Shown here: positions 10,183 to 30,672 of the stretch, one piece after another
Position numbering within the stretch: the first letter of the stretch is position 1
Layout of the letters: every line of letters starts with the position of its first letter
NCBI GenBank assembly: GCA_964588675.1
Contig: CAZPRG010000003.1
Location: 1-32,722 of the forward strand
Source of the DNA: an uncultured Ignavibacteria bacterium
GTDB lineage: Bacteria; Zixibacteria; MSB-5A5; SM1-73
DNA: 32,722 nucleotides
Direction: 5' to 3'
The notes under the pieces: model-generated
The model's input: only the letters and a program-made list of their open reading frames with translations
What the model was told of the DNA's origin: nothing
Database searches by the model: none
Translations under genes and position numbers: made by a program

Positions 10183-12423
10183 TCAGGGTGAGCAGGGTGC
10201 GGGACCTTCTCTGTACAGATAGTTGAGCAGGTAGATGGCGTCGCCCATTTCAACATCGCCGTCGCAGTTTACGTCTCCCAGGCTGAGAGGATCGGGACTG
10301 GGGCCGGACTTGTACAGATAGTTGAGCAGGAATATGGCGTCGCCCAAGTCGACCTGGCCATCGCCGGTCATGTCCCCGGCCTTGGCCCCCACCTCCAAGC
10401 CGCCCTGAAAAGGCAGGAAATTGTGAGCGGTCACGGTTACCTCCACCTGTCCGGAAGTCAGTGGATCCGGATACAAAGTCACCTGTCCGGCGGCGTCGGT
10501 GTAACCGGTTTCGAACACCTCGGCTCCCTTGTACAGGCATACCAGGGCTCCCGAAACCGGCTGGCTCTGGTCGTCCTCTACCGTGATCTCCACGGTATTG
10601 GGACCGGGGTTCACGGACGACGGCATGTCCAACGATAGCGGCTCCGCCGGAAAGGTCCACACGTCCAGCGAAGGATCTCCCAGAATATTATACACGTCCA
10701 GATAATAGCGGCTCATTCCCCCTCCGCTATAGAATTGGTAAAGCTCGTACAAGGCCCGGTCGGTCATGTTGCCTATGGAGTAGCAGGTTTCCACAAAGGC
10801 GGCCTGGAACATGGCTTTCTCCAGAATGTCGTCCTCGTCCCAGTAGGTGAGGTTGGAAGCGCCCCAGAAGGCTATCCCCCCTTTGTTTGCCACCTTGGCC
10901 CAGGTCTCGCCGAAGCATTCGGAAATGCTGTACTTTCCCGTGAGGCAGGCATGAGACAGGACCAAGGGATACTTCTCGGCGTTGCTCAGATTCCTGACGT
11001 TGGTCTGGTTGTAGGGAACACTGGCCCAGCTCAACTCGCTTCCGTGACCGGAATAGCAGACTATGCTTCTCCCTTCATTTACGGCTGTGGTGATCATGGC
11101 TCCCGATCCGCCCAGGCTTTCCCAGATGGTGTCGCAGATCATTCCGTTGGGAAGCACGTAATTTTCCATCACATAGTCATGCGTATCCTCCGCAAAGCCG
11201 CTCAGATCTTCGGCGGCGATGAAACAGGCTTTCTGCATCCAGGACAAATCGGAGGAGGTGGGGTTCTCATAGTACATGATCTTGGCAATCATGTCGGTCG
11301 CCTCGGCAAGCGATCTGGCCGGCAGACGGCCGCGAAAGATGTCGCCTAAGTAGTTGGGATCCATCTTGACATAATACAAATCCGTGGGAGCCCCCGAGCT
11401 GTAGCTGCCGCTCCAGGCAGGAATGTAATCGGTGTCGCCCACGAACAGAACGTAGGTAGGGGGAACCTCCCAGTTATCGTAGGCTTCCTGTATGTATGCT
11501 TTGATCTCCGCAGTTGTCGATCCGATTTGCGGAACCTGGGCCACGGTCACCTGAAACCCTTTGCGTGTTTTCCATTCGACCAGAGGCGCCAGGCTGGCAT
11601 AGAAGTTCTGGTGGGTTATGATCAGGTATCCCAGGGGCACCGGCGGAGCGCTCTTGACAAGCGGCGCATAGGTGGCGTAGTTGACGAACGATTCCCGGCA
11701 GAGCTTTTCAAAAGGCGTGGAGGCATATCGATAAAGCTGTTGTTCGGTTTTGGCCAGGTCCGCGCCGGAGAGCGCAACCCTGATCTGCATCCGGGAATAA
11801 ATCCGGATGAGCCCCTTCTGCGGGTTGTAGCTGACCGGATACAGAAGAACGGTGGCAAAGCGGTGGCCGCGGATGACGCCCACCTCACCCAGCTTGACCC
11901 GCTCCTCCGGAAGAAAGGCATCCTTTTGGTAGGCGGCTTCCTGGATTACGAACTGCGCCTGCTGCCCGGCGCCCGCGATCTTGGGCCGGGGAGGCTGCAC
12001 CGGTGCTATCCTTTGGGCCAGGCCCAGTTCCGTCAGGTTTTTCTCCACCACCTGGTAGCTTTCCAGACTGACGCTGACCTCCGCTCCAAAGGGAATCTGT
12101 ACGGTTTTGCTTATCACCGGCAGGTTCGGCTCACCCACGGCCGTGCCGGCTCCCGCATCGGTGATGGACAGCAGGGAAAAATCGCCGGCCGAGGTCGTCA
12201 GAGTCTGCGACCACATTCCCGGAATCTCCAAATCAAAGCTGATTCGGCTGAAATCCGATTCCAGCAGGCTGGCTCGCGGTAGCCGGTCCGCTGCCGGAGA
12301 CAATGGGATCCAGGAAGCCTGAGCCTCGGCCCAGGCAGGGCCGGAGAAACCGAAAAACAAGCACATCGCCAGCGAAGAGAACGCCAGGATGCGGATTATG
12401 GCTGAACTTCTGGCCACGGTCAC
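10183..12423 (-). CDS. Secreted peptidase C25 (gingipain-like cysteine peptidase) with Ig-like domain and C-terminal dockerin-type module
   Basis: The GTG start is preceded by AAGGAGG at 6 nt, and there is a signal peptide (...GFSGPAWA/EA). The C25 core includes YLIITHQNFYASLAPLVEWKTRKGFQV and YVLFVGDTDYIPAW. The catalytic contexts are YSGHGSE (His) and LVLSHACLTGKY (Cys). The dockerin tail is listed separately. Confidence 0.85.
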   Translation of the reverse strand: MTVARSSAIIRILAFSSLAMCLFFGFSGPAWAEAQASWIPLSPAADRLPRASLLESDFSRISFDLEIPGMWSQTLTTSAGDFSLLSITDAGAGTAVGEPNLPVISKTVQIPFGAEVSVSLESYQVVEKNLTELGLAQRIAPVQPPRPKIAGAGQQAQFVIQEAAYQKDAFLPEERVKLGEVGVIRGHRFATVLLYPVSYNPQKGLIRIYSRMQIRVALSGADLAKTEQQLYRYASTPFEKLCRESFVNYATYAPLVKSAPPVPLGYLIITHQNFYASLAPLVEWKTRKGFQVTVAQVPQIGSTTAEIKAYIQEAYDNWEVPPTYVLFVGDTDYIPAWSGSYSSGAPTDLYYVKMDPNYLGDIFRGRLPARSLAEATDMIAKIMYYENPTSSDLSWMQKACFIAAEDLSGFAEDTHDYVMENYVLPNGMICDTIWESLGGSGAMITTAVNEGRSIVCYSGHGSELSWASVPYNQTNVRNLSNAEKYPLVLSHACLTGKYSISECFGETWAKVANKGGIAFWGASNLTYWDEDDILEKAMFQAAFVETCYSIGNMTDRALYELYQFYSGGGMSRYYLDVYNILGDPSLDVWTFPAEPLSLDMPSSVNPGPNTVEITVEDDQSQPVSGALVCLYKGAEVFETGYTDAAGQVTLYPDPLTSGQVEVTVTAHNFLPFQGGLEVGAKAGDMTGDGQVDLGDAIFLLNYLYKSGPSPDPLSLGDVNCDGDVEMGDAIYLLNYLYREGPAPCSP
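10186..10377 (-). other. Dockerin type-I-like double EF-hand module (domain within the C25 CDS)
   Basis: There are two 22-residue repeats with the Ca-loop pattern DxxxDGxxxxxD: DMTGDGQVDLGDAIFLLNYLYK and DVNCDGDVEMGDAIYLLNYLYR. The DNA segment gtacagatagttgagcagg occurs twice (10211-10229 and 10312-10330). Confidence 0.75.
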
Positions 12424-13909: not shown

Positions 13910-13945
13910 CTTTGCTCCTTTTCTTCGATTCGAAGTTATCCCGAT

Positions 13946-16848: not shown

Positions 16849-16926
16849 GTATCACTCCGGCAGCATGAGGCGCTCAACGGACGATTCATCGACCATTCGA
16901 AACCACTAACAAAAAGGGGGAGGAAA

Positions 16927-17415: not shown

Positions 17416-17442
17416 TACCGGAGAGACAAGGGCCAACCAACC

Positions 17443-17964: not shown

Positions 17965-17973
17965 GGAGAGGCG

Positions 17974-18822
17974 ATGAGGAAGATTCTCTTTTTCTGTTTC
18001 CTTTTGGTCCTGTCTGCGGAGCTCTCCCGGGCCGGCGTGGTAGTGGTGGGAGGGCTGACCCAGGAGAAGAATCTCCTGTTGGGGGAGAAGATAGAGGGAA
18101 GCATCCAGTTGGAGAACAACGGAGCCACGCCTTGCCAAGTGCGCGTGTATCAGACCGACTACTCGTTTCGCGCCGACGGAAGCAATCTTTACGGCCAGCC
18201 GGGAACCGCAGCCCGCTCCAACGCCGGATGGTTCTCCGTCAGCCCCAACCGCCTGACCATCCCTCCTCACGAAAAAGCCTGGGTGTACTATTCCGGCCGG
18301 GTCCCGCCGGGCACGGAGTGGGCCTCGATTCAAAACGACCTCCAGGGGACGGAAGGCTCCTTTTTGTCAGGCAGCTACTGGAGCATGGTGATGATCGAGC
18401 CGCTGTCGGAGGCGGAGATGCAGACGGCAGAGGATCAGACGGGAAAGTTGAAAATGGGCATAGAAACCAAGGTTCGGTACGGCATACAGATCGTCACCAA
18501 CGTCGGTGATTCCGGAACACCCCGGATCAGGTTCCTGGACAAAAAACTGTTCACCCGAGAGGGCCGAACCACTCTGCAGATGGACATCGAGAATATCGGC
18601 CAGAGATGGTTTTCTCCCATTGTGTGGGTGGAGCTTTACGACGATCGGGGAACCCTGGCCGGCCGTTTCCAGGGCGATAAAAAGCGCATCTATCCCGGTT
18701 GCTCTGTGAGACATAAGGTGGATCTGACCGGCGTGGCTCCGGGGAAATACAAGGCTCTGGTGGTGGTGGACAACGGAGACCAATACGTCTTCGGCGCCAG
18801 GTACGATCTCGGAATCGAATGA
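17974..18822 (+). CDS. Secreted two-Ig-like-domain protein, putative periplasmic chaperone-like component
   Basis: The SD gggagagg lies 5 nt upstream, and the signal peptide is MRKILFFCFLLVLSAELSRA/GV. Two beta-sandwich-like halves are visible. The first is GSIQLENNGATPCQVRVYQTDY...WFSVSPNRLTIPPHEKAWVYYSGRVP. The second is LQMDIENIGQRWFSPIVWVELYD...APGKYKALVVVDNG. The stop overlaps the next start (ATGA at 18819-18822). Confidence 0.7.
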   Translation: MRKILFFCFLLVLSAELSRAGVVVVGGLTQEKNLLLGEKIEGSIQLENNGATPCQVRVYQTDYSFRADGSNLYGQPGTAARSNAGWFSVSPNRLTIPPHEKAWVYYSGRVPPGTEWASIQNDLQGTEGSFLSGSYWSMVMIEPLSEAEMQTAEDQTGKLKMGIETKVRYGIQIVTNVGDSGTPRIRFLDKKLFTREGRTTLQMDIENIGQRWFSPIVWVELYDDRGTLAGRFQGDKKRIYPGCSVRHKVDLTGVAPGKYKALVVVDNGDQYVFGARYDLGIE

Positions 18823-21635
18823 TGAAACCAACCTTTGTTCTCCTGGTTCTGCTCCCCGCTTTTTTCTCCCCGGCCGTTGCGCAAGATTCAACCGGTGTGG
18901 TGGACGTGAGGTCCAGCTCTCCCGAACTTCTCCAGGCCGATCCGGGAAGCATCGTCACCGCCAGTTTTCTGATCTGGGACCGATCAGGGAAGGAGGGGGA
19001 ATTTCGTGAGGAGCTGACGCTTCCGTCCGGCTGGCAAAAGGCGGTGGCCGACGAGCCGGTCTTGGCGCTGAAACCCGGCGAGTCTCAGGTTCGGGTGTTC
19101 GCATTCCTGGTTCCTCTCTGGGCCCAGGCGGGAACCTACCGGATTTATTATCACCTGCGCAGTCAAGAGGACCCAGGGACAACGACTGTCGACAGCGTGA
19201 TGGTGGAGGTTCTGCCGGTCACGGAGTTGAAGCTCTCGGTCCTCGACAAGCCTCCCCCGGCGATAGCGGGGGAGACCTACCAGATGAATCTGCTGGTGAC
19301 TAACCAGGGAAACTCCGAAGTCGAAGTCCGGCTGGGCGCGAAATCCAGCCCGGATTGGGCTCTTCGAATTGATCCGGACAGCATGAGGCTGGAAGCGGGC
19401 GAGTCGCGTCCGGCAACCGCCGAGGTTCGAACCGACCCCAGGCTGGGCAGAAAAACCACCCAGATCGTGCACCTGACGGCGCAAGGGAAAACCCCCACCG
19501 GCGGCATCGTCCGCAGCAAACAAGTAATCTCGGTGGAAGTCCTCCCGCAAGTCACGGCAGCGCCCGATCCTTATCTCAGATTGCCCGGCAAAGCCTGCCT
19601 GATTGCCGCCGGCCAGGACGGAAAAGCCGGCCTCCAGTTGGATGTCTCAGGATGGGGCGATTTGGACGAGGGTGGAAAACGCAAGGTGGATTTTCAGTTT
19701 CGCGGGCCGGACATTCAAGGGAAAAGCATGTGGGGGAAAAAAGACGAGCTTCGCTTGAGCTATCGGCAGGAACATCTCGAGCTGCACCTGGGCGATCGGG
19801 GATTCTCGCTTTCCCCTTTGACCCAGAGGTTCACTTACGGCAGAGGCGTGGAGGTCGACTTCCGCCAGGGACGGCTCCGAGGTGGGGCTTTGTACGTGAG
19901 GGACAGATGGGGTGAGCCCAGACCGGAATTGGCCGGAGGATATCTGGCTTATCGGGCGGGCGAGAAGATCGACCTCAAGGGGAACCTGCTCAGTAAAAGC
20001 CGGGATTCCACCCTTTCGGTGGAAGGATACGATCTGAGAATTTACAGCCTTGAAACCGAGCTAGATCTGGATCCCGGTATGAAACTGGACCTGGAATGCG
20101 GCTTGGGTGAGGGCCGAAGAGACGGCCAATCCAGCGGGCTGGCCGTCCGCCTGAATTTGGCCGGCCGGTTGTGGGACCGCGTCTGCTACTCATTGGAGAA
20201 TACCCACGCCTCACCCCGGTATTACGGATACTACAACGATGCCGATTACAACAGCGGATCGGTCAGCTTTGACGTCTGGCGGCGGCTGCGGGCCAACCTG
20301 TTTTACCGGAGCCACAGGAACAACCTGGACTCGGATTCCACCTTGGGTCCGGCCAACCGCGAGGAGTCGTACCAGGCCGGTTTCCGCTATTCGTTCCGGT
20401 CCGGGCCGGAGGTTTCCGCAGAATACAGAACCTTAGACCGGCGAGACGACGTGCTGCCTCCGGATTATCACTACCGGGAGAAAGCGGTGAGAGTGGGAGT
20501 GACCCAGACCTGGGGCAGGCTGCGGGTTAACGCACAGGTGGAGAGGGGCGAGTTTGAGGACAGGCTAACCTCCGCCAGAAACGACGATCTGGAGAGGTAT
20601 CACTTATATGCCTCCTTTCACCCCTCCTATAAGCAAAGTCTGAGCTTATATGTCAGAGTGGGGCACACCAGTTTCACCGGCACGCCGGAGAGGACCAAGA
20701 GCTTTGGCGCTTCCGGTTCCTGGCTGGTTTCGGGCGACTTGTCGTTGAGTCTGGACGTTCGAAGGGACGACTCCGGCTCCAGCCGGTGCGGCAACCGGCA
20801 GAGCCTCCTCTGCTCGGTGGGCTATACGTTTGCAAACGGACACGGCTTATCTTTGAGAAGCCAGTGGCTTCGGTACGATCAGACAAAGGAGAAGGATCTT
20901 TCGCTGTTGGCCTCCTACACGGTTCCTTTGAGAATCCCGGTAGGCAAAAGAAGGAGCATGGGAGTGTTGAAGGGCCAGGTTCTCGATTGGGAGGACCCCA
21001 AGCGGCCGCCCCTCTCCCGGGTCATCCTGAGTGCCGACGGGTTCACTGCGGTGACCGATGACCAAGGTGAGTTCGTCTTTCCTTCCCTTGCGCCGGGAAC
21101 CCATTATCTGCGCGTGGAGAGCAGCTCCATCGGACTTGATCGGGTCATCACGGCCAAACAGCCGGTGGCGGTGGAGGTGAGAGGGGGAAAAACCGCCGAG
21201 ATCGATATCGGGGTGGTGAGCTCCTGCACCATTTCGGGCAGGGTCCTGATCAGCCGGCCGGACTCCAACCGAAGCTCTGCAACTGTCGATTTCGCCGCCA
21301 AAGACAGTCTGTACATCGTCGGCTCAGGAGCGCCGGAATCCAGGACATCGGACCTGGCAGGTGAGGAAGGCTTGGCCAATGTCCTGGTGGAGATCAGGGA
21401 CCTACAGGAGGTTCTGCGCCAATTGACCGACCCGGAAGGAGGGTTCTCCTTCCAGGGCATCAGGCCGGGCGTGTGGACCCTCCGAGTTTACGATGATGGC
21501 CTTCCGCCCCAACATTATCTGGAACAAAACGAAGCACGGCTTGAGTTGAAACCGGGGGAGAAGTCGGAGACCACCATCAGGGTCCTGCCTCGCCTGCGGC
21601 CCATTCAGATCATTGAAGAAGGGGAATTGGATTAG
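18819..21635 (+). CDS. Large outer-membrane protein: two N-terminal Ig-like (CARDB/NEW3-like) domains, central beta-barrel, two C-terminal carboxypeptidase-regulatory-like Ig domains (usher-like layout)
   Basis: The signal peptide is MMKPTFVLLVLLPAFFSPAVA/QD. The repeated Ig-like modules show ...PGSIVTASFLIWDRSG...LKPGESQVRVFAFLVP...AGTYRIYY and ...AGETYQMNLLVTNQGNSEVEVRL...LEAGESRPATAEVR. About 430 aa of amphipathic, aromatic-rich strands follow (YSLENTHASPRYYGYYNDADYNSGSVSF, LLASYTVPLRI). The C-terminal modules read GQVLD...VTDDQGEFVFPSLAPGTHYL and SGRVL...LTDPEGGFSFQGIRPGVWTL. Confidence 0.75.
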   Translation: MMKPTFVLLVLLPAFFSPAVAQDSTGVVDVRSSSPELLQADPGSIVTASFLIWDRSGKEGEFREELTLPSGWQKAVADEPVLALKPGESQVRVFAFLVPLWAQAGTYRIYYHLRSQEDPGTTTVDSVMVEVLPVTELKLSVLDKPPPAIAGETYQMNLLVTNQGNSEVEVRLGAKSSPDWALRIDPDSMRLEAGESRPATAEVRTDPRLGRKTTQIVHLTAQGKTPTGGIVRSKQVISVEVLPQVTAAPDPYLRLPGKACLIAAGQDGKAGLQLDVSGWGDLDEGGKRKVDFQFRGPDIQGKSMWGKKDELRLSYRQEHLELHLGDRGFSLSPLTQRFTYGRGVEVDFRQGRLRGGALYVRDRWGEPRPELAGGYLAYRAGEKIDLKGNLLSKSRDSTLSVEGYDLRIYSLETELDLDPGMKLDLECGLGEGRRDGQSSGLAVRLNLAGRLWDRVCYSLENTHASPRYYGYYNDADYNSGSVSFDVWRRLRANLFYRSHRNNLDSDSTLGPANREESYQAGFRYSFRSGPEVSAEYRTLDRRDDVLPPDYHYREKAVRVGVTQTWGRLRVNAQVERGEFEDRLTSARNDDLERYHLYASFHPSYKQSLSLYVRVGHTSFTGTPERTKSFGASGSWLVSGDLSLSLDVRRDDSGSSRCGNRQSLLCSVGYTFANGHGLSLRSQWLRYDQTKEKDLSLLASYTVPLRIPVGKRRSMGVLKGQVLDWEDPKRPPLSRVILSADGFTAVTDDQGEFVFPSLAPGTHYLRVESSSIGLDRVITAKQPVAVEVRGGKTAEIDIGVVSSCTISGRVLISRPDSNRSSATVDFAAKDSLYIVGSGAPESRTSDLAGEEGLANVLVEIRDLQEVLRQLTDPEGGFSFQGIRPGVWTLRVYDDGLPPQHYLEQNEARLELKPGEKSETTIRVLPRLRPIQIIEEGELD

Positions 21636-22076
21636 CGCCTGAGGTCACGAAAAGACCGCCCGCCCGCTTTTCACTCCGCTGTTTCTTTGCAGCATCTTCC
21701 CACAAAGCACCACGTCGTGGTCCGACCAGGTCGAGGGTGAGTATCCTGGACAGAGGAAATGGGCGGAAAGCCCATGTCCCCAGAACCGATGTCGTGGTCG
21801 GGGAGGATTGGCCTCCCAACGGTTGGTGATCGGGAAGCGTATGGGAGTAAGGTCGAACGGGTCTGATGAATAATAGCTTGACAAAACCGATAGGTTATAT
21901 TAAGCTAAGAAGTTAGGGCTTGCAAGTGAGTCTCCCGAAGGGGAGTTCGACTGCAAGTCTTTGCACTCTTTGAGGAAACGAAACCGAACCGGGAAGTCGT
22001 GCGGCCGTATGTGGCGGCCCATCGGTGCCCCGCCTTCGCCCGAAACATGCAGGTGGATCACAAGGACAGAGAGGGA

Positions 22077-23327
22077 ATGAGCATCAGCGTTATGGCTGAG
22101 GACATCAAAAGGGTGGCTGCCGACGAGGGATTGACCCCGGAGTTCATCCGAGAGGGCGTAGATCGGGGTACCATCGTCATCCTGAGGAACAAACAGCATG
22201 CCTGGGCCAAGCCGGTAGGGGTGGGCAGAGGTCTGCGGACCAAGATCAACGTGAATCTGGGGAGCTCTCCGGACATGGTCGATTCCGACCTGGAGCTGGC
22301 CAAGGTGCGAATGGCGATGGAGCTGGGGGCCGATACGGTGATGGATTTGTCCACCGGCGGCGACATTCGAAGTCTCAGAATCTCGGTACTCAAGGAATCC
22401 CACATACCGGTGGGAACTGTGCCCATCTACGAGGCGGTCTGCAAGCTGGCCCAGGACGGAAAGTCGCCGGTCGATCTGACCAAAGATTCCCTTTTCTCGG
22501 TGATCCGGGATCATTTCGAATCGGGGGTGGATTTTCTGACCGTTCACTGCGGCCTGACCAGCCGGGCCCTTCCGGTGATCGAGCGAAGAAAGAGAACCAC
22601 CGGCATAGTCAGCCGGGGAGGGTCGTTTCTCCACAAGTGGATGAAGCATAACCGCCGGGAGAATCCCCTCTACGAACACTACGACGAGCTTCTGGACATG
22701 ACCCGGGAGTACCACGCCACTTTGAGTCTGGGCGACGGTCTGAGGCCGGGCAGCATAGCCGATTCCACCGACTCCTCCCAGGTGGAGGAGCTTTTGGTTC
22801 TGGGAGAGCTGGTGGACCGCGCCAGGGACAAAGGCGTGCAGGCCATGGTGGAAGGCCCCGGGCACATTCCCATACACGAGATCCCGGCCAACGTGCTTCT
22901 GGAGAAGAAACTGTGCCACGGCGCGCCTTTCTACGTACTGGGACCTCTGGTTACGGACAGCGCCCCGGCATACGATCACATAGTTTCGGCCATCGGCGGT
23001 GCCGTGGCGGCGTCCGCGGGCGCCGACTTCCTGTGTTACGTGACCCCCTCCGAACACCTGTGTCTCCCGGATATCGAAGACGTCAGACAGGGAATCATCG
23101 CCTCCAGGATCGCCGCCCATGCAGCGGACATCGCCAAGGGGATCGGGGGCGCCGAGAAGCAGGATCTTTTGATCTCGCAGGCCAGAAAGAATTTCGACTG
23201 GGAGAAAGTGATGAGCCTGAGCATGGACCCGGAGAGGGCCAGGAGGAAAAGGGGAAAGGTGGGATCGGATTCCCAGAAGTGCACCATGTGCGGCCAGTTC
23301 TGCGCCATGCGGGAGAATATGATCTGA
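22077..23327 (+). CDS. thiC: Phosphomethylpyrimidine synthase ThiC (short, anaerobe-type form)
   Basis: ThiC signature stretches include NVNLGSSPD, VMDLSTGGDI, VPIYEA, DFLTVHCG, LSLGDGLRPGSIADS, MVEGPGHIP, APFYVLGPLVTD and the C-terminal CTMCGQFCA cluster motif. I chose the ATG at 22077 because gagaggga lies upstream. The ORF-track start at 21999 adds a non-conserved extension. Confidence 0.93.
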   Translation: MSISVMAEDIKRVAADEGLTPEFIREGVDRGTIVILRNKQHAWAKPVGVGRGLRTKINVNLGSSPDMVDSDLELAKVRMAMELGADTVMDLSTGGDIRSLRISVLKESHIPVGTVPIYEAVCKLAQDGKSPVDLTKDSLFSVIRDHFESGVDFLTVHCGLTSRALPVIERRKRTTGIVSRGGSFLHKWMKHNRRENPLYEHYDELLDMTREYHATLSLGDGLRPGSIADSTDSSQVEELLVLGELVDRARDKGVQAMVEGPGHIPIHEIPANVLLEKKLCHGAPFYVLGPLVTDSAPAYDHIVSAIGGAVAASAGADFLCYVTPSEHLCLPDIEDVRQGIIASRIAAHAADIAKGIGGAEKQDLLISQARKNFDWEKVMSLSMDPERARRKRGKVGSDSQKCTMCGQFCAMRENMI

Positions 23328-23447
23328 CCACAGCCATGTCCGTCCCTGCTGCCATGCGGTTTGTTCCCATTCGCAGGCGGCGGACAAGATTGCAGACGTT
23401 TGAGATTCACGAACATTGAACGATTCAACCCCTCAACCAGGGAGGAG

Positions 23448-24083
23448 ATGATGAGAGATCGGCAGCGCTTCATCCGCCCGGCCTCACTGCTGGTGGGCGC
23501 TTTGGCCTGGATGATGATGTTTGCAGCTTTTGCCTCGGCAGAGAATGATCCCTTCGGCAAGCCGGATACCTGTCGGATCCTGGTGGACCAGGACCAGAAG
23601 ACCGGACAGGGGGTAATACACGTGTCGGTTTTCAACGACGAGGACCTGGCCGCCTTAACCCTGCCGTTCTCTTACGGCGACGGGGACAGTCCGGTGCGGT
23701 GCGATTCGGTGAGGTTCCGTAATACCCGAACGGAGTTCTTCGACATGAGGACCGCCAGCATCGACACGGTAGGCCAGACCGTGTTGATCGGACTTATCGC
23801 CGACATGACCGGAAAAAAGCCGCCTATGCCGAAGGGGGACGGAGAAGTAGCCGTCATCTACTTCACTTTTCCGGCCAACCAGCGGTTCCACGACTTCGTG
23901 ATGGATACCACCATGGTCAAGCCCTTCAACCTGCTCAAGTTCGTGACCCCGGACGTCAAGGCGGTGTATCCCGAGTTCGACAACTCTCAGGCTCTGATAA
24001 GGGGCGGAATCCCCATCCGCGCTCCGGAGAAGCCCAAGGAAGGAGAAAACCCGCCGGAAAAGAAGGCAGAGGAGAAAAGGTAA
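23448..24083 (+). CDS. Small secreted protein with cohesin-like beta-sandwich sequence pattern and Lys/Glu/Pro-rich tail
   Basis: The SD gggaggag sits directly before ATGATG at 23448. The signal or anchor is ASLLVGALAWMMMFAAFASA/EN. The pattern GQGVIHVSVFNDEDLAALTLPFSYGDG...TVGQTVLIGLIADMTGKKPPMPKGDGEVAVIYFTFPAN resembles a cohesin domain. The corresponding cohesin positions are G-x-V-x-V-x-V ... F-x-Y-D ... I-x-F-x-F ... DG-x-A-x-I-x-F. The C-terminal tail is RAPEKPKEGENPPEKKAEEKR. Confidence 0.65.
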   Translation: MMRDRQRFIRPASLLVGALAWMMMFAAFASAENDPFGKPDTCRILVDQDQKTGQGVIHVSVFNDEDLAALTLPFSYGDGDSPVRCDSVRFRNTRTEFFDMRTASIDTVGQTVLIGLIADMTGKKPPMPKGDGEVAVIYFTFPANQRFHDFVMDTTMVKPFNLLKFVTPDVKAVYPEFDNSQALIRGGIPIRAPEKPKEGENPPEKKAEEKR

Positions 24084-24102
24084 CGGGAGTGTTGTACAGA
24101 GA

Positions 24103-24130
24103 CCCCGGCTTTGCGGCCGGGGTTTGTTTT
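24103..24130 (+). terminator. Rho-independent terminator after the cohesin-like gene
   Basis: The stem ccccggc (24103-24109) pairs with gccgggg (24116-24122) around a 6-nt loop. tttgtttt (24123-24130) follows, 20 nt past the stop codon. Confidence 0.8.
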
Positions 24131-24384
24131 CCCCGACGCCCACCAGAGGTGAGTTGTGCACGTATTCTGGGATGGGAGAATGTGGGGAAAGTTGGGAAGG
24201 CGCCGATGACAGGGGCTGTTTTGGGTATCTTAATGTGAGCTGAACGAGAGCGTTTGCCGGCAGGGCCCGGCCGCTGCACGGTTGGTCCGACGGACCAAAC
24301 CCAGTCAGAGGGCTGCCGCCGGCCGAGCGTCGACGCTGCGGCGAACCGAATTCAACGGCAGACGGGATGAGATGAAGCTCACCG

Positions 24385-24412
24385 TTGACAAATTCAGGAT
24401 ATGACCTATATT
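24385..24412 (+). promoter_or_regulatory. Near-consensus sigma70-type promoter for the M14 peptidase gene
   Basis: TTGACA (24385-24390), a 16-nt spacer, then TATATT (24407-24412). This implies a leader of roughly 145 nt before the start codon. Confidence 0.55.
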
Positions 24413-24561
24413 GGTTTATAGGATAGGAAAGGTCAAGGGTTCGCCCGATGGGCTGCTTGTCTTGCACCATGATCCGGCCTTCCGACAAAAACTTCACTGG
24501 TCTTCAAAATTTAAGTCATGTGACGATCGAGATCGATCCATAAAAGACACCGGAGGTGAAC

Positions 24562-26730
24562 GTGAAAGTCGCAAGAGTGTTGGTGGCGTGCTTGCTCTTG
24601 GTGGGGGTGTTTTCCATGGCCGCAGCTGCTTCTGACCAGAAGGTGATGCAGGTCAGGATTTATCCGGCAGACAAGTCCCAGGTGGAGGAGATATTGGGCC
24701 TGCGGCTGGACGTGGCCTATGTCAAGGCGGATGAATACATCGATATCATAACCGATCAGGAGGAGTTGGGCCGACTGCTTTCCAAGGGATTTGACGCCAA
24801 TATCGTCCACTCGGATTTGGTGGCCTTTTATCAGAGCAGGCTGGAGAAGGGAAAGGCCATGGGGGGGTACCACACGTACAGCGAGGTCATGGCTGCTCTG
24901 GATTCCATGCATGCGCTTCATCCCTCCATCACCACGGCCAAGATGGACATTGGGCACAGTTATGAGGATAGCGTAATCTGGGCCATCAAGATATCGGATA
25001 ACCCCACGGTGGACGAGGACGAGCCGGAGGTGTTTTTCAACTCCTTGATTCACGCTCGCGAGCCGGCAGGCATGGAAGTTCTGCTGTACTTTATGTGGTA
25101 CCTTCTGGACAACTACGGAACCGATCCGGTAGCCACCCATCTGGTCAACGACCGGGAGCTGTGGTTCGTTCCGGTGGTGAACCCGGAAGGATACTGCTAC
25201 AATGAATACCAACACCCAGGGGGCGGGGGGATGTGGCGGGCGAATCGGCGCGACTGCGGCGCAGACTACGGGGTGGACTTGAACAGGAACTGGAGCTACA
25301 TGTGGGGATACGACGACGAAGGCTCCAGTCCCTACTGCGGCGAGGAGACCTATCGAGGTACCGGCCCCTTCTCCGAGCCCACAACCCAGGCCATGAGAGA
25401 TTTCATCCTCAGCCATCACTTCGTCATGTGCCTGGACAATCACACCTGGGGCATGTGGCTGATCTATCCCTGGTGCTATGATCGTCTCTACACTCCGGAC
25501 CACAATCTTTTCGTGGCCATTACCGATTCCATGGCCGTTTTCAACGGGCACACGCCCGGCACGGCCTGGGAGACGGTCAACTACCCGGTCAACGGTGGAA
25601 GCGTTGATTGGGAATACGGAGAAGCCGGGATCATCGGCATCAGCCCGGAGATCGGCAACGAGAGTGACGGGTTTTGGCCTCCGCCATCCAGGATACTGCC
25701 CTTGTGCCAGCTGGAGCTGCCGGCCAATCTTCTATATGCGGAACTGGCGGACAACCCTCGCCGGATACTCCCGCCCAACGCACCTACACTGGCGGCCATT
25801 GATTCCGTCCCGGCCGACTACACCATCCGCTGGTCGCATCAAGACACTCTGAACCCCGCGGCAGCCTTCGAGCTGGTGGAGATGACGGGCTTTTCCAGAT
25901 CCACCTATGATGTGGAAAGCGGGTATCCGAGTTGGCAGTTGGATGGATTCACGGTCTCCGCCACCAGAAGTCACTCTCCCACCCACAGCTTTTATTCCGG
26001 CAAGGCAAACAATCTGAACAACAAGGTGACCTGCGCGTCCAGCATCAACGTTCAGCCGAACGACAGCCTCAAGATCTGGTGCTGGTACAACATCGAGGAA
26101 AACTGGGACTACGCTTACGTGGAGGTGTCCACCGACGGGGGCGCCAGTTTCTCTCCCATCCCGGGAAACATCACCACCACCTACAACCCCCACGGCTACA
26201 ACCAGGGGAACGGCATCACCGGTTCCTCCGGAGGAGCATGGGTAGAAGGTAAATTCAGCCTCAGCAGTTATATGGGGCAGCAGATTTATCTGCGCTTGCG
26301 TTACGCAACCGATGACTGGACCACCTATGATGGGTTCTATGCCGACGACATCTATCCGTTCGAGAGTTACGAATCCATCGTCTCCCTGTCCGATGCCATC
26401 CCCGACACGTTCTACCAGATCACCGGACAGGAGAACGGAACTTTCAGCTACAAGGTCAGGGCCGAGGACCAGCAGAATCAGTGGGGCGCCTGGAGCAACG
26501 TGGAGACGGCGGTGGTGTTCGAAGAGCAGTTCACCAGGGGAGATGCCAACGGGGACGGGACCATCACCCTAAGCGACGTGGTGTTTCTGATCAACTACCT
26601 GTACAAGAACGGACCGGTTCCCGACCCTCCGGCTGCCGGGGATGCCACCAGCGATGGTCAAACAGATTTGGCGGATGTGGTGTATTTACTTAACTATCTG
26701 TACAAAGGAGGTCCACCTCCCCAGAAATAG
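24562..26730 (+). CDS. Secreted M14 zinc carboxypeptidase with jelly-roll/FN3-like accessory region and C-terminal dockerin-type module
   Basis: I prefer the GTG at 24562 because GGAGG lies 5 nt upstream. The ORF-track start is the GTG at 24556. The signal peptide is KVARVLVACLLLVGVFSMAAAA. M14 motifs are NSLIHAREPAG (HxxE), WRANRR, GVDLNRNW, LDNHTWG, GGSVDWEY and ISPEIG. The dockerin module spans 26539-26727 (DANGDGTITLSDVVFLINYLYK and DATSDGQTDLADVVYLLNYLYK). Confidence 0.9.
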   Translation: MKVARVLVACLLLVGVFSMAAAASDQKVMQVRIYPADKSQVEEILGLRLDVAYVKADEYIDIITDQEELGRLLSKGFDANIVHSDLVAFYQSRLEKGKAMGGYHTYSEVMAALDSMHALHPSITTAKMDIGHSYEDSVIWAIKISDNPTVDEDEPEVFFNSLIHAREPAGMEVLLYFMWYLLDNYGTDPVATHLVNDRELWFVPVVNPEGYCYNEYQHPGGGGMWRANRRDCGADYGVDLNRNWSYMWGYDDEGSSPYCGEETYRGTGPFSEPTTQAMRDFILSHHFVMCLDNHTWGMWLIYPWCYDRLYTPDHNLFVAITDSMAVFNGHTPGTAWETVNYPVNGGSVDWEYGEAGIIGISPEIGNESDGFWPPPSRILPLCQLELPANLLYAELADNPRRILPPNAPTLAAIDSVPADYTIRWSHQDTLNPAAAFELVEMTGFSRSTYDVESGYPSWQLDGFTVSATRSHSPTHSFYSGKANNLNNKVTCASSINVQPNDSLKIWCWYNIEENWDYAYVEVSTDGGASFSPIPGNITTTYNPHGYNQGNGITGSSGGAWVEGKFSLSSYMGQQIYLRLRYATDDWTTYDGFYADDIYPFESYESIVSLSDAIPDTFYQITGQENGTFSYKVRAEDQQNQWGAWSNVETAVVFEEQFTRGDANGDGTITLSDVVFLINYLYKNGPVPDPPAAGDATSDGQTDLADVVYLLNYLYKGGPPPQK
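26539..26727 (+). other. Dockerin type-I-like double EF-hand module (domain within the M14 CDS)
   Basis: Two DxxxDGxxxxxD loops are each followed by the helix V(V/F)(F/Y)L(I/L)NYLYK and a Gly-Pro-rich spacer. This is the same module design as the C25 peptidase tail at 10186-10377. Confidence 0.75.
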
Positions 26731-27486: not shown

Positions 27487-27627
27487 TTCCTGAAGTAGAA
27501 CCCAAGGGCCAACTATCTGTTGTGCTCCGCGCGGGGAAGATGTAACTTGACGTGATTGCTGACATCCTCCCCAGAGCAACGGGTTGTCCCTTTCGGGATG
27601 AGTCTATCTTTACTTCAGGAGGTCAAG

Positions 27628-28917
27628 TTGAAAAAAACTCTCTTTGGGTGCGGGCTTCTGATCTGCCTGCTCCTGTTGGGGCCGACGGCCACCAAAGGAC
27701 GGGCGCAAGGGCTGGTCTTGGATTCTCTGATAGCAGAGGCGCTCAGAGCCAACCCGGATTTGGCCGCAGCCCAGCTTCGCTATCAGGCCTTCCAGGCAAG
27801 AGTTCCCCAGGCCGGCTCGCTGCCCGATCCCATGCTGAAGGCCACCGCCTCCAATCTGCCCGTCGATTCCTGGGACCTAAACCGAACACCCATGAGCGGT
27901 ATCGAATTCATGCTCACCCAGACTATTCCCTTTCCCGGGAAGCTGGGGCTGAAGAAAAGCGCGGCCCGAAGCCTGGCCCGGAAGGCGGAATCCGATTATG
28001 AGACTGCTGCGGATTTCGTGGTGGCCCAGCTCAAGGCCGACTATTACCGGCTCTACCTGCTGGATGAGTCCATCGATATCACCCGGGAGAACAAGAGCCT
28101 GCTGCAGGAGTTCGCCCAGGTGGCCTCCACCCGATATTCCGTGGGCAAAGGTCTTCAGCAGGACGTGCTCAAGGCCCAAGTGGAGGTGTCCAAGATGACG
28201 GACCAGCTGGTTTCGCTGGAGGAGGGCAGACGAACTGCCCGGGCCGAGATCAACGTTCTTCTCAACCGCAGTCCCCAGGATTCCCTGGACCGGCCGGAGA
28301 GCCTGCGATTTCGGGAGATGACTTACTCCGAGACCGAGCTCCAGAGCATGGCCGTGGATTCGAACCCCGCTTTGCAGGGGATGGAGTCGACCGTGCGGGC
28401 GGCCGAGTCGTCACACCGGCTGGCACGCCGCGAGTACCTGCCGGATTTGGCTTTTTCGGTCAGTTACCGGGTGCGGGAAGAGGTGCCCGGTGACCCGGTG
28501 CGGGGAGTGGGTTTCTTCTCCGCCTCGGTGGGGGTGAACGTGCCGCTTTACTTCTGGTCGAAGCAGAAGAGAAAGGTGGAGGAGAAGGAATCGGAGCTGA
28601 AATCCGCCCGCTTCAAGTACGAGCAGATGACCAACCAGGTGAAGCTGGCGGTATCCCGACTTTTCTATTCGCTGGCCAGATACAAAGAGCAGGTCCAGCT
28701 TTATGGATCGGCCATCCTGCCCCAGGCCCGGGCTTCGCTGGAATCCGCCCGGTCGGGCTACCAGGTGGACAAGGTGGACTTTCTGACGCTGCTTAACAGC
28801 CAGACGACCCTTTACAACTACCGGATCGCCTATCATCAGGCTCTAAGTTCGTATTTTTCGACCGTGGCCCGGCTGGAGGAGATGGTCGGCAGGTCGCTGC
28901 TCGAGGAAGGAGAATAG
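27628..28917 (+). CDS. cusC: TolC-family outer-membrane efflux protein (CusC/CzcC-like)
   Basis: I chose the TTG start at 27628 because AGGAGG lies 5 nt upstream. This gives the signal peptide MKKTLFGCGLLICLLLLGPTATKGRA. The family N-terminal motif is LVLDSLIAEALRANPDLAAAQ. There are two coiled-coil/barrel repeats (...ATRYSVGKGLQQDVLKAQVE... and ...SARSGYQVDKVDFLTLLNSQTTL...). The ORF-track start at 27556 is the alternative. Confidence 0.85.
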   Translation: MKKTLFGCGLLICLLLLGPTATKGRAQGLVLDSLIAEALRANPDLAAAQLRYQAFQARVPQAGSLPDPMLKATASNLPVDSWDLNRTPMSGIEFMLTQTIPFPGKLGLKKSAARSLARKAESDYETAADFVVAQLKADYYRLYLLDESIDITRENKSLLQEFAQVASTRYSVGKGLQQDVLKAQVEVSKMTDQLVSLEEGRRTARAEINVLLNRSPQDSLDRPESLRFREMTYSETELQSMAVDSNPALQGMESTVRAAESSHRLARREYLPDLAFSVSYRVREEVPGDPVRGVGFFSASVGVNVPLYFWSKQKRKVEEKESELKSARFKYEQMTNQVKLAVSRLFYSLARYKEQVQLYGSAILPQARASLESARSGYQVDKVDFLTLLNSQTTLYNYRIAYHQALSSYFSTVARLEEMVGRSLLEEGE

Positions 28918-28920
28918 ATC

Positions 28921-30672
28921 ATGTCGCAGAATAAATCGAAATGGTGGGCGGTGGTTCTGGTGGTAATAGTGGCTTTGGGTGCGGGAGCCGTGGGAGGGCT
29001 TCTGATCGCAGAAAAATCGTCGGGCCCGACCCAGACGACGGCAACCGAGACGGCCGGCGGCAAGCAGCTTTATTCCTGCGGCATGCATCCCGACATCATC
29101 CGCGACCAACCGGGGAATTGTCCCATTTGCGGAATGAAACTCACGCCGGTCAAGACCGCTTCCGCAGCGGCAGCCGTGCCGCCCGGTGAGCGAAAGATAA
29201 AGTACTGGCGGGCGCCCATGGATCCGACCTACATCTCCGACAAACCGGGAAAGTCGCCCATGGGAATGGATCTGGTGCCGGTGTATGAAGACCAGATCGA
29301 GGAAGGCGCCATCGCCATAGATCCGGTCACTGTTCAGAACATGGGTCTGCGGACCGTGGCGGTCCGAACCGGCAGGCTGACCCGGACCATCCGGACGGTG
29401 GCCAACGTGACCTATGACGAGCGGAAGCTGTACGTGATAAACACCAAGATCGACGGCTGGATAGAGAAGCTGTACGTGAACGAAACCGGGCAGGAGGTCA
29501 AAGAGGACCAGCCGCTTCTGGAGATATATTCGCCCGATTTGGTCAGCACCCAGGAGGAGTACCTCTCCGCGGCTAAGAACTACCAGTCGCTCAAGGACAG
29601 CCCTTACCAGGACGTGCGCCAGGGGGCGCTGGAGCTTCTGAATTCCACCCGCCGGAGACTGGAGTACTGGGGCATCGATGAGGGCCAGATTCGGAATCTG
29701 GAAAGCGGCGCCGGAATGAAGAAAACCTTGACTCTCAACTCGCCGGCCCGGGGAGTGGTGGTTCACAAGGACGCGGTGGAAGGCACCTACGTCAAGGCCG
29801 GGTCGGACCTTTTCAGAATCGCCGATCTTTCCACGGTGTGGGTTCTGGCCTCCGTTTACGAATATCAGCTTCCCTACCTAAAGCTGGGTCAGACGGCCCG
29901 GGTGAGCCTGCCTTATCTCCCCGGGGAGTCGTTCGAGGGGAAGGTGTCCTATGTTTATCCCTATCTGGATGCCAAGGCTCGCGACGTCAAGGTGCGGCTG
30001 GAGTTTTCCAATCCCGATCTCAAGCTTAAGCCGGAGATGTACGCCGATGTGGTGATCGAATCCGATCTGCCGGGGATGAGGGTTTTGGTTCCCGAGGAGG
30101 CCGTGATTCACTCCGGCAAGAGGGAGATAGTATTCGTGGATCTTGGGGAGGGCAAGTTTGCCCCCCGGGAGATCGTCACCGGCGTGAGCGGAGAGGGAAA
30201 TGTGGTGGAGGTAAAAGAGGGGCTTATGCCAGGCGAGACCATCGTGGCTTCAGGTCAGTTCATGCTGGACTCGGAGAGCAAGACCCAGGAGGCCATCCAG
30301 AAAATGATCAGCGCCCAGACCGCCGGCTCGTCCAAGCCGCAGTCCCAAGTTTCGCCCGTTCCGGACAGCTCTGAACGGACCGAAGCTCAGCAAGCCGAAA
30401 CCGGGACCAAGAACCTGAACCTGACCCCGGATAAGAAGGCCGATTTCGCCGACCAGGTCTACACTTGTCCCATGCCCGAACACAGCTATGTCCTTCAGGT
30501 GGGTCCGGGAACCTGTCCGGAATGCGGGATGGATTTGGTCCCCATCACCCAGACCGGCAGGACGGTTTACACCTGCCCCATGCCGGAGCATCATCACATC
30601 CTTTCCGACCAGCCCGGCGAGTGCCCGGAGTGCGGCATGAAGCTGGTGCCGCTTGGAAGCAAGTCGGAATGA
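28921..30672 (+). CDS. cusB: Efflux RND periplasmic adaptor (CusB-like membrane fusion protein) carrying three CxxC-type heavy-metal-binding modules
   Basis: An SD (aggagaa) precedes the start, and there is an N-terminal TM helix. MFP core motifs are [31 protein letters not shown] and [12 protein letters not shown]. Metal-binding modules lie at 29071-29142 ([24 protein letters not shown]) and 30460-30654 (two tandem copies). Confidence 0.9.

What the first reader, a model, noticed from the sequence alone, without database searches (positions are those of the whole stretch)
23448..24083. Possible cohesin-like partner encoded next to a dockerin-bearing peptidase
This 211-aa secreted protein has no recognisable enzymatic motif. 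Its strand pattern matches the cohesin beta-sandwich by eye. The segments are GQGVIHVSVFNDEDLAALTLPFSYGDGDSPVRCDSVRF, then TVGQTVLIGLIADMTGKK, then PKGDGEVAVIYFTFPAN. In cohesins the corresponding positions are G-x-V-x-V-x-V...F-x-Y-D, I-x-F-x-F and DG-x-A-x-I-x-F. It ends in a charged Pro/Lys/Glu tail (EKPKEGENPPEKKAEEKR) that could act as a spacer or a cell-surface interaction segment. It lies 472 bp upstream of the dockerin-tailed M14 carboxypeptidase, although it has its own terminator. A second dockerin-tailed peptidase lies 11 kb away. If it is a real cohesin, the window encodes a scaffold for displaying proteases rather than glycoside hydrolases.
Basis: inference. Interest (0 to 1): 0.65.

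Follow-up and report, generated by a model that had tools for sequence, protein, structure and literature searches.

The report
Divergent stand-alone cohesin in Zixibacteria
This small secreted protein of an uncultured salt-marsh Zixibacterium is a highly diverged cohesin module that standard domain libraries miss; it probably binds the dockerin tags on neighbouring secreted peptidases, but that binding has not been tested.

Summary
Window 23448-24083 (+) encodes a 211-aa protein with a signal peptide, a ~150-aa beta core and a Lys/Glu/Pro tail. It has its own terminator and lies 472 bp upstream of an M14-MAM-dockerin peptidase. A C25-dockerin peptidase lies 11 kb away.

Pfam, NCBIfam and PDB sequence searches find nothing. 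The AlphaFold2 model (core pLDDT >90) nevertheless hits only cohesins in its top 50 PDB matches (TM up to 0.78). The family profile retrieves 413 clusters. Of 113 scanned, 29 contain Pfam Cohesin domains, and in all three checked these lie on the same segments. 46 carry T9SS sorting domains and 19 carry dockerins.

The block thiC-X-M14/dockerin recurs across Zixibacteria. I counted 40 dockerin ORFs in 367 kb around X genes. Related loci also encode cohesin-like+dockerin fusion paralogs and a dockerin-cohesin-T9SS-CTD protein.

Verdict: X is a real, divergent, single-module cohesin. It is not a multi-enzyme scaffold by itself, and how it is anchored is unknown. A similar peptidase-displaying system was inferred in Cloacimonadota in 2021. 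I rate this a new variant of a known kind, of moderate interest.

The parts
23448..24083 (+). CDS of protein X (211 aa; the likely true start is the second ATG at 23451)
   Evidence: Translation; 102 homologues; purifying selection; GGAGG at 23441-23445.
23448..23540 (+). Sec signal peptide, residues 1-31, with a predicted SPase I site ASA|EN
   Evidence: Read from the sequence: n-region RDRQR, hydrophobic core, then A-x-A. AF2 predicts helix 9-29. The position is conserved in alignment A1 (consensus ..SFA|Q). Cleavage is inferred, not predicted with a dedicated tool.
23556..24011 (+). Cohesin-like nine-strand beta-sandwich core, residues 37-188, including the invariant Cys42/Cys85 pair
   Evidence: AF2 pLDDT 90-97 with nine strands. 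The top 50 Foldseek PDB hits are all cohesins. hhalign against Pfam-Cohesin segments gives Prob 97%. Invariant columns are listed.
24012..24080 (+). Disordered Pro/Lys/Glu-rich C-terminal tail, residues 189-211
   Evidence: pLDDT <50. Tails of 20-45 aa are present in all full-length homologues but are not alignable. Basic C-terminal ends recur in 20 of 59 stand-alone relatives, none of which has a T9SS CTD.
24100..24131 (+). Intrinsic terminator of X
   Evidence: Fold at -24.8 kcal/mol, z -3.2, followed by UUUGUUUU. An equivalent hairpin and T-run is present in L005 and other loci.
24385..24412 (+). Conserved sigma-70-type promoter of the M14-dockerin gene (TTGACA-16-TATATT)
   Evidence: 11 of 12 consensus positions. 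TTGACAAAT and TATATT are invariant in six loci whose spacers otherwise diverge.
24556..26730 (+). Secreted M14 carboxypeptidase + InhA-like MAM domain + C-terminal type I dockerin (module at about 26539-26727)
   Evidence: Pfam: M14 4e-60, MAM 1.5e-31, Dockerin_1 34.7 bits against a gathering score (GA) of 22.9. Two F-hand repeats, DANGDG..D and DATSDG..D.
10183..12423 (-). Secreted C25 (gingipain-like) peptidase with propeptide, CarboxypepD_reg domain and C-terminal type I dockerin (module at about 10186-10377)
   Evidence: Pfam: Peptidase_C25 4e-72, Propeptide_C25, Dockerin_1 32.8 bits. Signal-peptide-like N-terminus.
21999..23327 (+). thiC, the most constant upstream neighbour of X (context only; no functional link is claimed)
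   Evidence: Pfam ThiC_Rad_SAM 5e-183. thiC is upstream of X in every locus that has enough flank.

Best explanation
X is a Sec-exported, single-module, highly diverged cohesin.

Shown: it adopts the nine-stranded cohesin beta-sandwich, it is homologous to Pfam-recognised cohesins through intermediate sequences, and it is conserved across Zixibacteria in neighbourhoods crowded with proteins that end in one uniform type I dockerin.

Inferred: after signal-peptide cleavage the core, probably braced by the invariant Cys42-Cys85 pair, uses its most conserved strands as a flat face that binds the Ca2+-folded dockerin at the C-termini of secreted proteins. Those strands are NDE-LAALTLPF, IDT..QTVLIGLIAD and DTT..P.N.LKFVTP, which correspond to strands 3, 5/6 and 8 of classical cohesins. 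The dockerin consensus is DANGDGxIxxxDVV(F/Y)LINYL(Y/F)(K/R). The candidate partners include the M14 carboxypeptidase next door and the C25 peptidase 11 kb away.

Because X is monovalent, it would tether or cap one dockerin protein at a time rather than scaffold several. The Lys/Glu/Pro tail stands where related proteins carry a T9SS sorting domain. I therefore propose that it acts as a spacer and an electrostatic attachment to the cell envelope.

In related genomes X would work within a wider cohesin-dockerin network that includes cohesin-like+dockerin fusion paralogs and a dockerin-cohesin-T9SS-CTD anchor.
For: Fold: AF2 mean pLDDT is 81.5, with the core above 90. The Foldseek top 50 in the PDB are all cohesins, types I to III, at E 7e-6 to 3e-4, TM normalised to the target up to 0.78, and rmsd 2.8 A over 145 columns.

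Homology: the family profile finds 413 clusters, many with 2-4 tandem copies. Of 113 scanned, 29 hit Pfam Cohesin (best 2e-21), 19 hit Dockerin_1 and 46 hit the T9SS CTD. In all three proteins checked the Cohesin hit overlaps an X-like stretch. hhalign of Pfam-delimited cohesin segments against the signal-peptide-trimmed X family gives Prob 97%, E 1e-10. A 34%-identical orthologue hits Pfam Cohesin at E 1.2e-3.

Context: the thiC-X-M14/dockerin block occurs in about 20 loci. There are 40 dockerin ORFs in 367 kb, 39 of them C-terminal, with N18-Y19-L20 conserved at 86-100% in both repeats. The neighbouring paralogs are cohesin fold plus dockerin. A Zixibacterial Dockerin+Cohesin+Por_Secre_tail protein exists, as does an FCB-group X-like+BACON+dockerin protein next to an M1 peptidase-dockerin.

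Precedent: a dockerin-peptidase and cohesin-CTD system was inferred in Cloacimonadota (PMC8542988).
Against: - No direct profile match of X or any of 50 family members to Pfam Cohesin, even at E<=10.
- No PDB sequence-profile hit.
- hhalign against a single CipA cohesin is weak (E 0.014, Prob 3%).
- Binding was not modelled or measured.
- The assignment of conserved residues to the binding face rests on strand order, not on coordinates.
- X has no known anchoring module, and in a diderm its final location (periplasm, surface or medium) is unknown.
- Other, Pfam-detectable cohesins exist in Zixibacteria, so X need not be the partner of these particular dockerins.
- No transcript data were found.
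Confidence: 0.6

Rival explanations
1. X has the cohesin fold but no longer binds dockerins. It would be a secreted beta-sandwich with another ligand, such as a polysaccharide, the cell envelope or another surface protein. The dockerins would then be served by the Pfam-type cohesins found elsewhere in Zixibacterial genomes.
For: X is too diverged for any cohesin profile to detect. A canonical Cohesin+CTD protein exists in a Zixibacterial MAG. X is monovalent and lacks an anchor.
Against: The most conserved segments are the strands that form the dockerin face in classical cohesins (inference). Relatives of X occur in tandem arrays fused to dockerins and T9SS CTDs, as scaffoldins do. X genes sit among dockerin genes in almost every locus.
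Confidence: 0.2
2. X is a dedicated partner of the adjacent M14 carboxypeptidase. It could be an inhibitor, a chaperone or a tethered substrate whose flexible Lys-rich C-terminal tail enters the carboxypeptidase active site, as the tails of known protein inhibitors of M14 enzymes do (from general knowledge of PCI, LCI and TCI).
For: X-M14 adjacency is conserved in about 20 loci. Most tails end in Lys or Arg, or next to one.
Against: Four loci with enough flank lack the M14 gene: L004, L024 and L025 keep thiC-X, and L022 keeps X at the start of its contig. X has its own terminator and M14 its own conserved promoter. The tail ends are not uniform (E, D, N or G in several). The conserved part of X is the beta core, not the tail. 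The wider X-like family is linked to dockerins and CTDs, not to M14.
Confidence: 0.07
3. X is a periplasmic receptor or holdase that recognises the C-terminal dockerin as a sorting tag. It would hand dockerin-tagged cargo to an outer-membrane export route instead of displaying it on the surface.
For: X has only a Sec signal and no outer-membrane targeting module. 39 of 40 dockerins are strictly C-terminal, like secretion tags. The organism encodes outer-membrane proteins (FadL, OEP).
Against: Related X-like modules carry T9SS CTDs, which implies an extracellular location. No such role is known for any cohesin. This rival still requires dockerin binding, so it is a variant of the best explanation, not an alternative fold or function.
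Confidence: 0.1

Closest known systems
Single-cohesin anchoring proteins of Acetivibrio (Clostridium) thermocellum (OlpA, OlpC, SdbA) and classical type I/II cohesins (Pfam PF00963)
   Same: Nine-strand beta-sandwich. The best structural matches include OlpA 3ul4_A (TM 0.78), OlpC 4dh2_A and SdbA 2bm3. One cohesin per protein. Encoded alongside proteins that carry a type I dockerin with two F-hand repeats.
   Different: Sequence identity is 6-17%, with no profile hit. There is no SLH or other recognised anchoring module, only a charged disordered tail. The host is a diderm from the FCB group. The candidate cargo is peptidases and proteins of unknown function, not glycoside hydrolases. An invariant Cys pair is present.
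Cellulosome-like system inferred in Cloacimonadota 'Ca. Stygibacter' (Williams et al. 2021, PMC8542988)
   Same: FCB-superphylum MAGs in which S8 and C25 (gingipain-like) peptidases carry C-terminal dockerins, and cohesins are coupled to a T9SS CTD for surface attachment. This is the same idea: cohesin-dockerin display of proteases.
   Different: There the cohesins are detected by InterPro and lie in tandem in one 3,755-aa scaffoldin with CBMs. Here the module is a Pfam-invisible, stand-alone 211-aa protein without a CTD, accompanied in related loci by cohesin-like+dockerin fusion paralogs.
Non-cellulosomal cohesins (Peer et al. 2009; Archaeoglobus fulgidus cohesin 2xdh)
   Same: Cohesin and dockerin modules outside cellulolytic Firmicutes, often single and attached to non-carbohydrate enzymes. 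2xdh is Foldseek hit number 11 (TM 0.69).
   Different: Those modules were found by sequence profiles. The X family was not found that way, and no paper in the searched library mentions cohesin or dockerin together with Zixibacteria.
Adaptor scaffoldins carrying both cohesin and dockerin (for example ScaA of A. cellulolyticus, ScaB/ScaC of R. flavefaciens)
   Same: The paralogs beside thiC-X in related loci combine one or two cohesin-fold modules with a C-terminal dockerin. Their best structural matches are type II cohesins.
   Different: The paralogs are small (about 290 or 500 aa) and occur in many copies per genome: at least 7 in one 2.56-Mb chromosome. They carry a ~45-aa insertion. They are not present in this window.

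Membership tests
Cohesin domain (Pfam PF00963) | Significant match of the protein itself to the family profile | tested here: not met
   No Pfam hit for X at E<=10. None of 50 family members hits Cohesin at E<=10. Family profiles A1 and A3 find no PDB cohesin by sequence. A 34%-identical orthologue reaches 19.4 bits, below the gathering score (GA) of 24.1.
Cohesin domain (Pfam PF00963) | Nine-stranded flattened beta-sandwich superposable on solved cohesins | tested here: met
   AF2 core pLDDT >90 with nine strands. All 50 best Foldseek PDB matches are cohesins, with prob 1.00, TM (target) 0.55-0.78 and rmsd 2.8-3.3 A for type I.
Cohesin domain (Pfam PF00963) | Homology traceable through intermediate sequences | tested here: met
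   The X profile retrieves proteins of which 29 of 113 pass Pfam Cohesin, on overlapping segments in all three checked. hhalign of Pfam-delimited segments against the trimmed X family gives Prob 97%, E 1e-10. Caveat: the intermediates were first found with the X profile.
Cohesin domain (Pfam PF00963) | Ca2+-dependent, high-affinity binding of a dockerin on the 8-3-6-5 sheet | not testable with these tools
The conserved columns fall on predicted strands 3, 5/6 and 8, which is suggestive only.
Cohesin domain (Pfam PF00963) | Co-occurrence with dockerin-bearing proteins in the same genome | tested here: met
   Two dockerin proteins lie in the window. There are 40 dockerin ORFs in 367 kb around X genes in Zixibacterial loci.
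Scaffoldin (multi-enzyme integrating subunit) | Two or more cohesin modules in one polypeptide | tested here: not met
   X holds one module, and no other ORF in the window matches the X, X-superfamily or paralog profiles.
Scaffoldin (multi-enzyme integrating subunit) | A recognised anchoring or targeting module (SLH, sortase motif, T9SS CTD, CBM) | tested here: not met
   No Pfam or NCBIfam domain in X. The C-terminus is a disordered K/E/P tail. None of the 59 stand-alone relatives has a CTD, against 65 of 89 larger relatives.
Type I dockerin (Pfam PF00404) on the M14 and C25 peptidases | Profile match above the gathering score, and two 22-residue F-hand repeats with Ca-ligand positions 1, 3, 5, 9 and 12 | tested here: met
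   Dockerin_1 scores 34.7 and 32.8 bits against GA 22.9. The repeats are DANGDGTITLSD/DATSDGQTDLAD and DMTGDGQVDLGD/DVNCDGDVEMGD. The consensus over 30 modules is.

The most novel reading that the evidence does not exclude
Zixibacteria and other FCB-group diderms may build a self-assembling, non-cellulosomal cohesin-dockerin network on their surface, dedicated largely to protein degradation. Its cohesins would form a distinct, so far unannotated subfamily of 413 clusters at 50% identity. The parts would be small cohesin+dockerin fusion proteins that chain together, a T9SS-anchored dockerin-cohesin base, and the Lys-tailed stand-alone cohesin X. X would act either as a non-covalent envelope anchor or as a chain terminator that sets how peptidases such as M14 and C25 are displayed.
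Probability: 0.25. Interest if true: 0.7.

Novelty: new variant of a known kind. Interest (0 to 1): 0.55.

Why it matters
Cohesin-dockerin pairing is the textbook way Gram-positive cellulolytic bacteria assemble enzyme complexes, and it is a workhorse of synthetic biology.

A large cohesin subfamily that current domain libraries miss would mean that surveys of "cellulosomal" modules undercount these systems in sediments. The subfamily is spread through uncultured FCB-group diderms and is tied to peptidases and to type IX secretion.

It would also give a concrete, testable handle on how abundant sediment heterotrophs such as Zixibacteria organise extracellular protein degradation. Finally, it could supply new orthogonal cohesin-dockerin pairs for protein engineering.

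Tried and rejected
- Direct family assignment failed. Pfam and NCBIfam on X and Pfam on all 50 aligned homologues gave no Cohesin hit.
- Profile searches of PDB sequences with A1 and the broader A3 found nothing. phmmer of the multi-cohesin relative P0123 against the PDB gave only noise.
- hhalign of A3 against a single CipA cohesin, whose sequence was verified against 1aoh, was collinear for strands 5-7 but weak (E 0.014, Prob 3%). Its N-terminal register is shifted by one strand relative to the AF2 strand order.
- A homologue search seeded with CipA cohesin returned only 11 close relatives. The resulting narrow profile did not reach the X superfamily, so no independent broad cohesin profile could be built.
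- No RNA-seq run holds the gene, so transcription and operon structure are inferred from motifs only.
- Rfam found nothing in the window, including no TPP riboswitch before thiC.
- The consensus terminator scan missed the X terminator; folding confirmed it.
- A functional thiC-X link was considered and dropped. The adjacency is constant, but other genes or 1-2 kb gaps intervene in several loci, and nothing else connects them.
- The cluster look-up for taxonomy of remote relatives gave no names.

Full report
**1.
Window 23448-24083 (+) is an ORF of 211 codons plus a stop. GGAGG at 23441-23445 and the family consensus (MR...) suggest the second ATG at 23451 is the real start.

The N-terminus (RDRQR, a hydrophobic stretch, then ASA|EN) reads as a Sec signal peptide, and AF2 models it as a helix. 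The stop is followed by a strong hairpin and a U-run at 24100-24131 (dG -24.8 kcal/mol, z -3.2).

The next gene starts 472 bp downstream at 24556. It encodes Peptidase_M14 + InhA-like MAM + Dockerin_1. A C25 gingipain-like peptidase with a propeptide, a CarboxypepD_reg domain and a C-terminal Dockerin_1 lies at 10183-12423 (-).

The gene is real and under purifying selection. It has 102 homologues of about 210-220 aa. Against the 89%-identical orthologue there are 46 synonymous and 23 non-synonymous codon differences.

**2. Organism and setting.**
The named homologues and 21 of 23 genome loci come from Candidatus Zixibacteria MAGs; some records are labelled "uncultured Ignavibacteria". Near-identical DNA occurs in salt-marsh, marsh and sediment metagenomes. 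No RNA run was found.

The rest of the window encodes ordinary diderm functions: FadL, an OEP/HlyD-HMBD efflux pair, ThiC, MiaB-like, MazG, ROK and others. Rfam finds nothing.

**3. Sequence methods alone do not identify X.**
- Pfam and NCBIfam give no hit for X at E<=10.
- None of 50 aligned family members hits Cohesin.
- Profiles of the family (A1) and of the wider superfamily (A3) find no PDB chain.

**4. The fold is that of a cohesin.**
With the 50-sequence alignment, AF2 gives a mean pLDDT of 81.5, with 90-97 over residues 41-185, and nine beta-strands. Only the signal peptide and the last ~23 residues are poorly defined.

Foldseek against the PDB returns cohesins for all 50 best matches, covering types I, II and III and the non-cellulosomal Archaeoglobus cohesin 2xdh. 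E-values run from 7e-6 to 3e-4 with probability 1.00. TM-scores normalised to the target reach 0.78 (OlpA, 3ul4_A), and rmsd is 2.8 A over about 145 columns, at 6-17% identity.

- GVIHVSVF corresponds to strand 2.
- LAALTLPFSY corresponds to strand 3.
- TVLIGLIAD corresponds to strand 6.
- GEVAVIYFTF corresponds to strand 7.

**5. Homology to annotated cohesins can be traced through intermediates.**
An exhaustive HMMER search with the family profile finds 413 clusters at 50% identity with E<=1e-3, and 156 with E<=1e-10. Many of these are long proteins with two to four X-like stretches.

Of 113 such proteins scanned with Pfam:
- 29 hit Cohesin (best E 2e-21).
- 19 hit Dockerin_1.
- 46 hit the T9SS sorting domain Por_Secre_tail.
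- Others carry BACON, PKD or Big_9 domains.

In all three proteins checked, the Pfam Cohesin stretch overlaps an X-like stretch: P0123 478-594 against 487-619, P0147 276-382 against 289-379, and P0152 189-299 against 192-296.

The Pfam-delimited segments score 42, 27 and 17 bits against the signal-peptide-trimmed strict X profile. hhalign of them against that profile gives Prob 97%, E 1e-10, and 99.3%, E 2e-20 against the superfamily profile. A 34%-identical orthologue (L026) reaches Cohesin at E 1.2e-3, below the gathering score.

One caveat applies. The intermediates were found with the X profile, so this is a chain of homology and not an independent hit.

**6. The genomic context is dominated by dockerins.**
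In 27 related loci the block thiC-X-M14/MAM/dockerin recurs while the outer flanks differ. Four loci with enough flank lack the M14 gene: L004, L024 and L025 keep thiC-X, and L022 keeps X at the start of its contig. X is therefore not tied to that one enzyme.

X and M14 are separate transcription units. X has its terminator. M14 has a TTGACA-16-TATATT promoter at 24385-24412 whose hexamers are invariant in six otherwise diverged spacers.

Across 367 kb of Zixibacterial DNA around X genes there are 40 dockerin ORFs, 39 of them with the dockerin at the extreme C-terminus. Both repeats share one consensus, DANGDGxIxxxDVV(F/Y)LINYL(Y/F)(K/R), with N18-Y19-L20 at 86-100%. The cargo includes M14, C25, NosD/beta-helix-PKD, SBBP beta-propeller and domain-less proteins. 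A single uniform dockerin type on varied cargo is what a shared receptor would predict.

**7. Related loci contain more cohesin-like modules.**
Many Zixibacterial loci carry one to three tandem genes, divergent from thiC, for proteins of about 290 or 500 aa. Pfam sees only their C-terminal dockerin. None of these genes is in this window.

- Their one or two ~200-aa modules align to the X superfamily (hhalign Prob 96.8%, E 2e-10), with a ~45-aa insertion.
- An AF2 model of one (P0268: pLDDT 87, pTM 0.75) matches cohesins in its top 19 PDB hits. Its tail matches solved dockerins at TM about 0.8 and rmsd 1.6-1.8 A.
- The family has 443 members, at least 7 of them in one 2.56-Mb Zixibacterial chromosome.
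- One Zixibacterial MAG also encodes Dockerin_1 + Pfam Cohesin (31 bits, above GA) + Por_Secre_tail (L022).
- An FCB-group MAG encodes a stand-alone X-like protein beside an X-like + 4 BACON + dockerin protein and an M1 peptidase-dockerin (L027).

Within this window X is the only cohesin-like ORF.

**8. Proposed mechanism.**
Shown: X has the cohesin fold, is homologous to cohesins, and co-occurs with one conserved dockerin type.

Inferred:
- X is exported and cleaved at ASA|EN.
- The invariant Cys42/Cys85 pair forms a disulfide.
- The best-conserved strands (NDE-LAALTLPF, IDT..QTVLIGLIAD, DTT..P.N.LKFVTP) form the dockerin-binding sheet.
- X captures Ca2+-folded dockerins of secreted proteins such as M14 and C25.

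X is monovalent, so it tethers or caps a single partner and does not scaffold several.

The tail is disordered and charged. Among 148 superfamily representatives, none of 59 stand-alone proteins has a T9SS CTD, and 20 of them end in a basic stretch. By contrast, 65 of 89 larger proteins end in a CTD. The tail thus stands where relatives carry their surface-attachment module, which suggests a spacer or envelope-binding role. This is speculative.

The cellular location of X in a diderm is unresolved.

**9. Rival explanations.**
- A cohesin fold that has lost dockerin binding (0.2).
- A periplasmic receptor for dockerin-tagged cargo (0.1).
- An M14-specific inhibitor, chaperone or tail substrate (0.07). 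This is weakened by the four loci without M14, the separate transcription units and the non-uniform tail ends.

**10. Comparison with what is known.**
Single-cohesin anchoring proteins (OlpA, OlpC, SdbA) are the nearest structural and architectural analogues. They carry SLH modules and are detectable by sequence.

The nearest conceptual precedent is the Cloacimonadota system of dockerin-tagged S8 and C25 peptidases with a CTD-bearing multi-cohesin scaffoldin (PMC8542988). Non-cellulosomal cohesins have been surveyed (Peer et al. 2009, cited).

No paper in the searched library mentions Zixibacteria together with cohesin or dockerin.

**11. Verdict.**
X is a genuine but highly diverged, stand-alone cohesin, and a new variant of a known kind. 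The fold and the homology are well supported, at about 0.9. The "protease scaffold" reading overstates what one module can do, although the wider network seen in related genomes makes surface display of peptidases plausible.

Noticed in passing
L013 19-1521(-), 1537-3048(-), 3064-3942(-); L025 5538-7031(-), 7047-7925(-); also L007, L010, L011, L016, L002/L015 (not in the window): A multi-copy family (443 proteins; at least 7 in one 2.56-Mb genome) of ~290-aa and ~500-aa secreted proteins, annotated only as 'dockerin type I repeat-containing'. Their one or two N-terminal modules are cohesin-fold relatives of X with a ~45-aa insertion. They are therefore cohesin+dockerin fusions that could chain together.
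   Followed up: yes
L022 6427-7494(-): A Zixibacterial ORF with Dockerin_1 + Pfam Cohesin (31 bits, above GA) + Por_Secre_tail (T9SS CTD), which is a candidate surface-anchored adaptor. The N-terminus looks truncated and begins like the end of an Fn3 domain.
   Followed up: partly
L027 9291-14800 (FCB group MAG): A stand-alone X-like protein (185 aa), then an 810-aa protein with X-like + 4 BACON + dockerin, then an M1 aminopeptidase with He_PIG + dockerin. This repeats the cohesin-like/peptidase-dockerin theme outside Zixibacteria.
   Followed up: partly
window 24084-24555: The 472-bp spacer before the M14 gene holds a near-consensus promoter at 24385-24412, invariant across six loci. This leaves a 5' leader of about 140 nt. 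A spacer of about 350-570 bp is kept in the compared loci, but the leader itself is poorly conserved and has no Rfam match.
   Followed up: partly
window 21636-23447: thiC is the most constant neighbour of X (upstream on the same strand, 120-bp gap here), yet no TPP riboswitch is detected upstream of thiC at Rfam gathering score. No promoter-like site lies between thiC and X, so co-transcription is possible in this genome.
   Followed up: partly
window 23541-23575 (residues 32-43): The motif D-x-F-G-K-P-D-T-C directly after the predicted signal-peptidase site is nearly invariant in the family. It persists as D..G..DT across the whole X-like superfamily, and most relatives have Gln at +1. Its role (start of strand 1, processing or sorting) is unknown.
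   Followed up: no
window 16708-21635: A four-gene cluster: three ORFs without Pfam hits and a 938-aa protein with NPCBM_assoc, FixG_C-like Ig, a Porin_4-like stretch and CarboxypepD_reg repeats. It is syntenic with L002 444-5150, again just upstream of a dockerin gene, thiC and X. It may be an envelope complex.
   Followed up: no
window 7389-9827(-) and 12677-15346(-): The C25-dockerin peptidase is flanked by a DUF5916/CBM9 protein on one side, and by a putative esterase and a FadL-type outer-membrane transporter on the other. This would fit a locus for uptake of degradation products.
   Followed up: no
window 27556-30672: An OEP (TolC-like) gene followed by a HlyD/CusB-type membrane-fusion protein with four heavy-metal-binding (HMBD) repeats. 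This is a likely metal efflux system, unrelated to the finding.
   Followed up: no
L005-L009, L014, L016, L024 record titles: Several MAG records that hold clear orthologues of this Zixibacterial block are titled 'uncultured Ignavibacteria bacterium'. One 34%-identical orthologue sits in a MAG labelled Terriglobales. These are probably labelling or binning issues.
   Followed up: no
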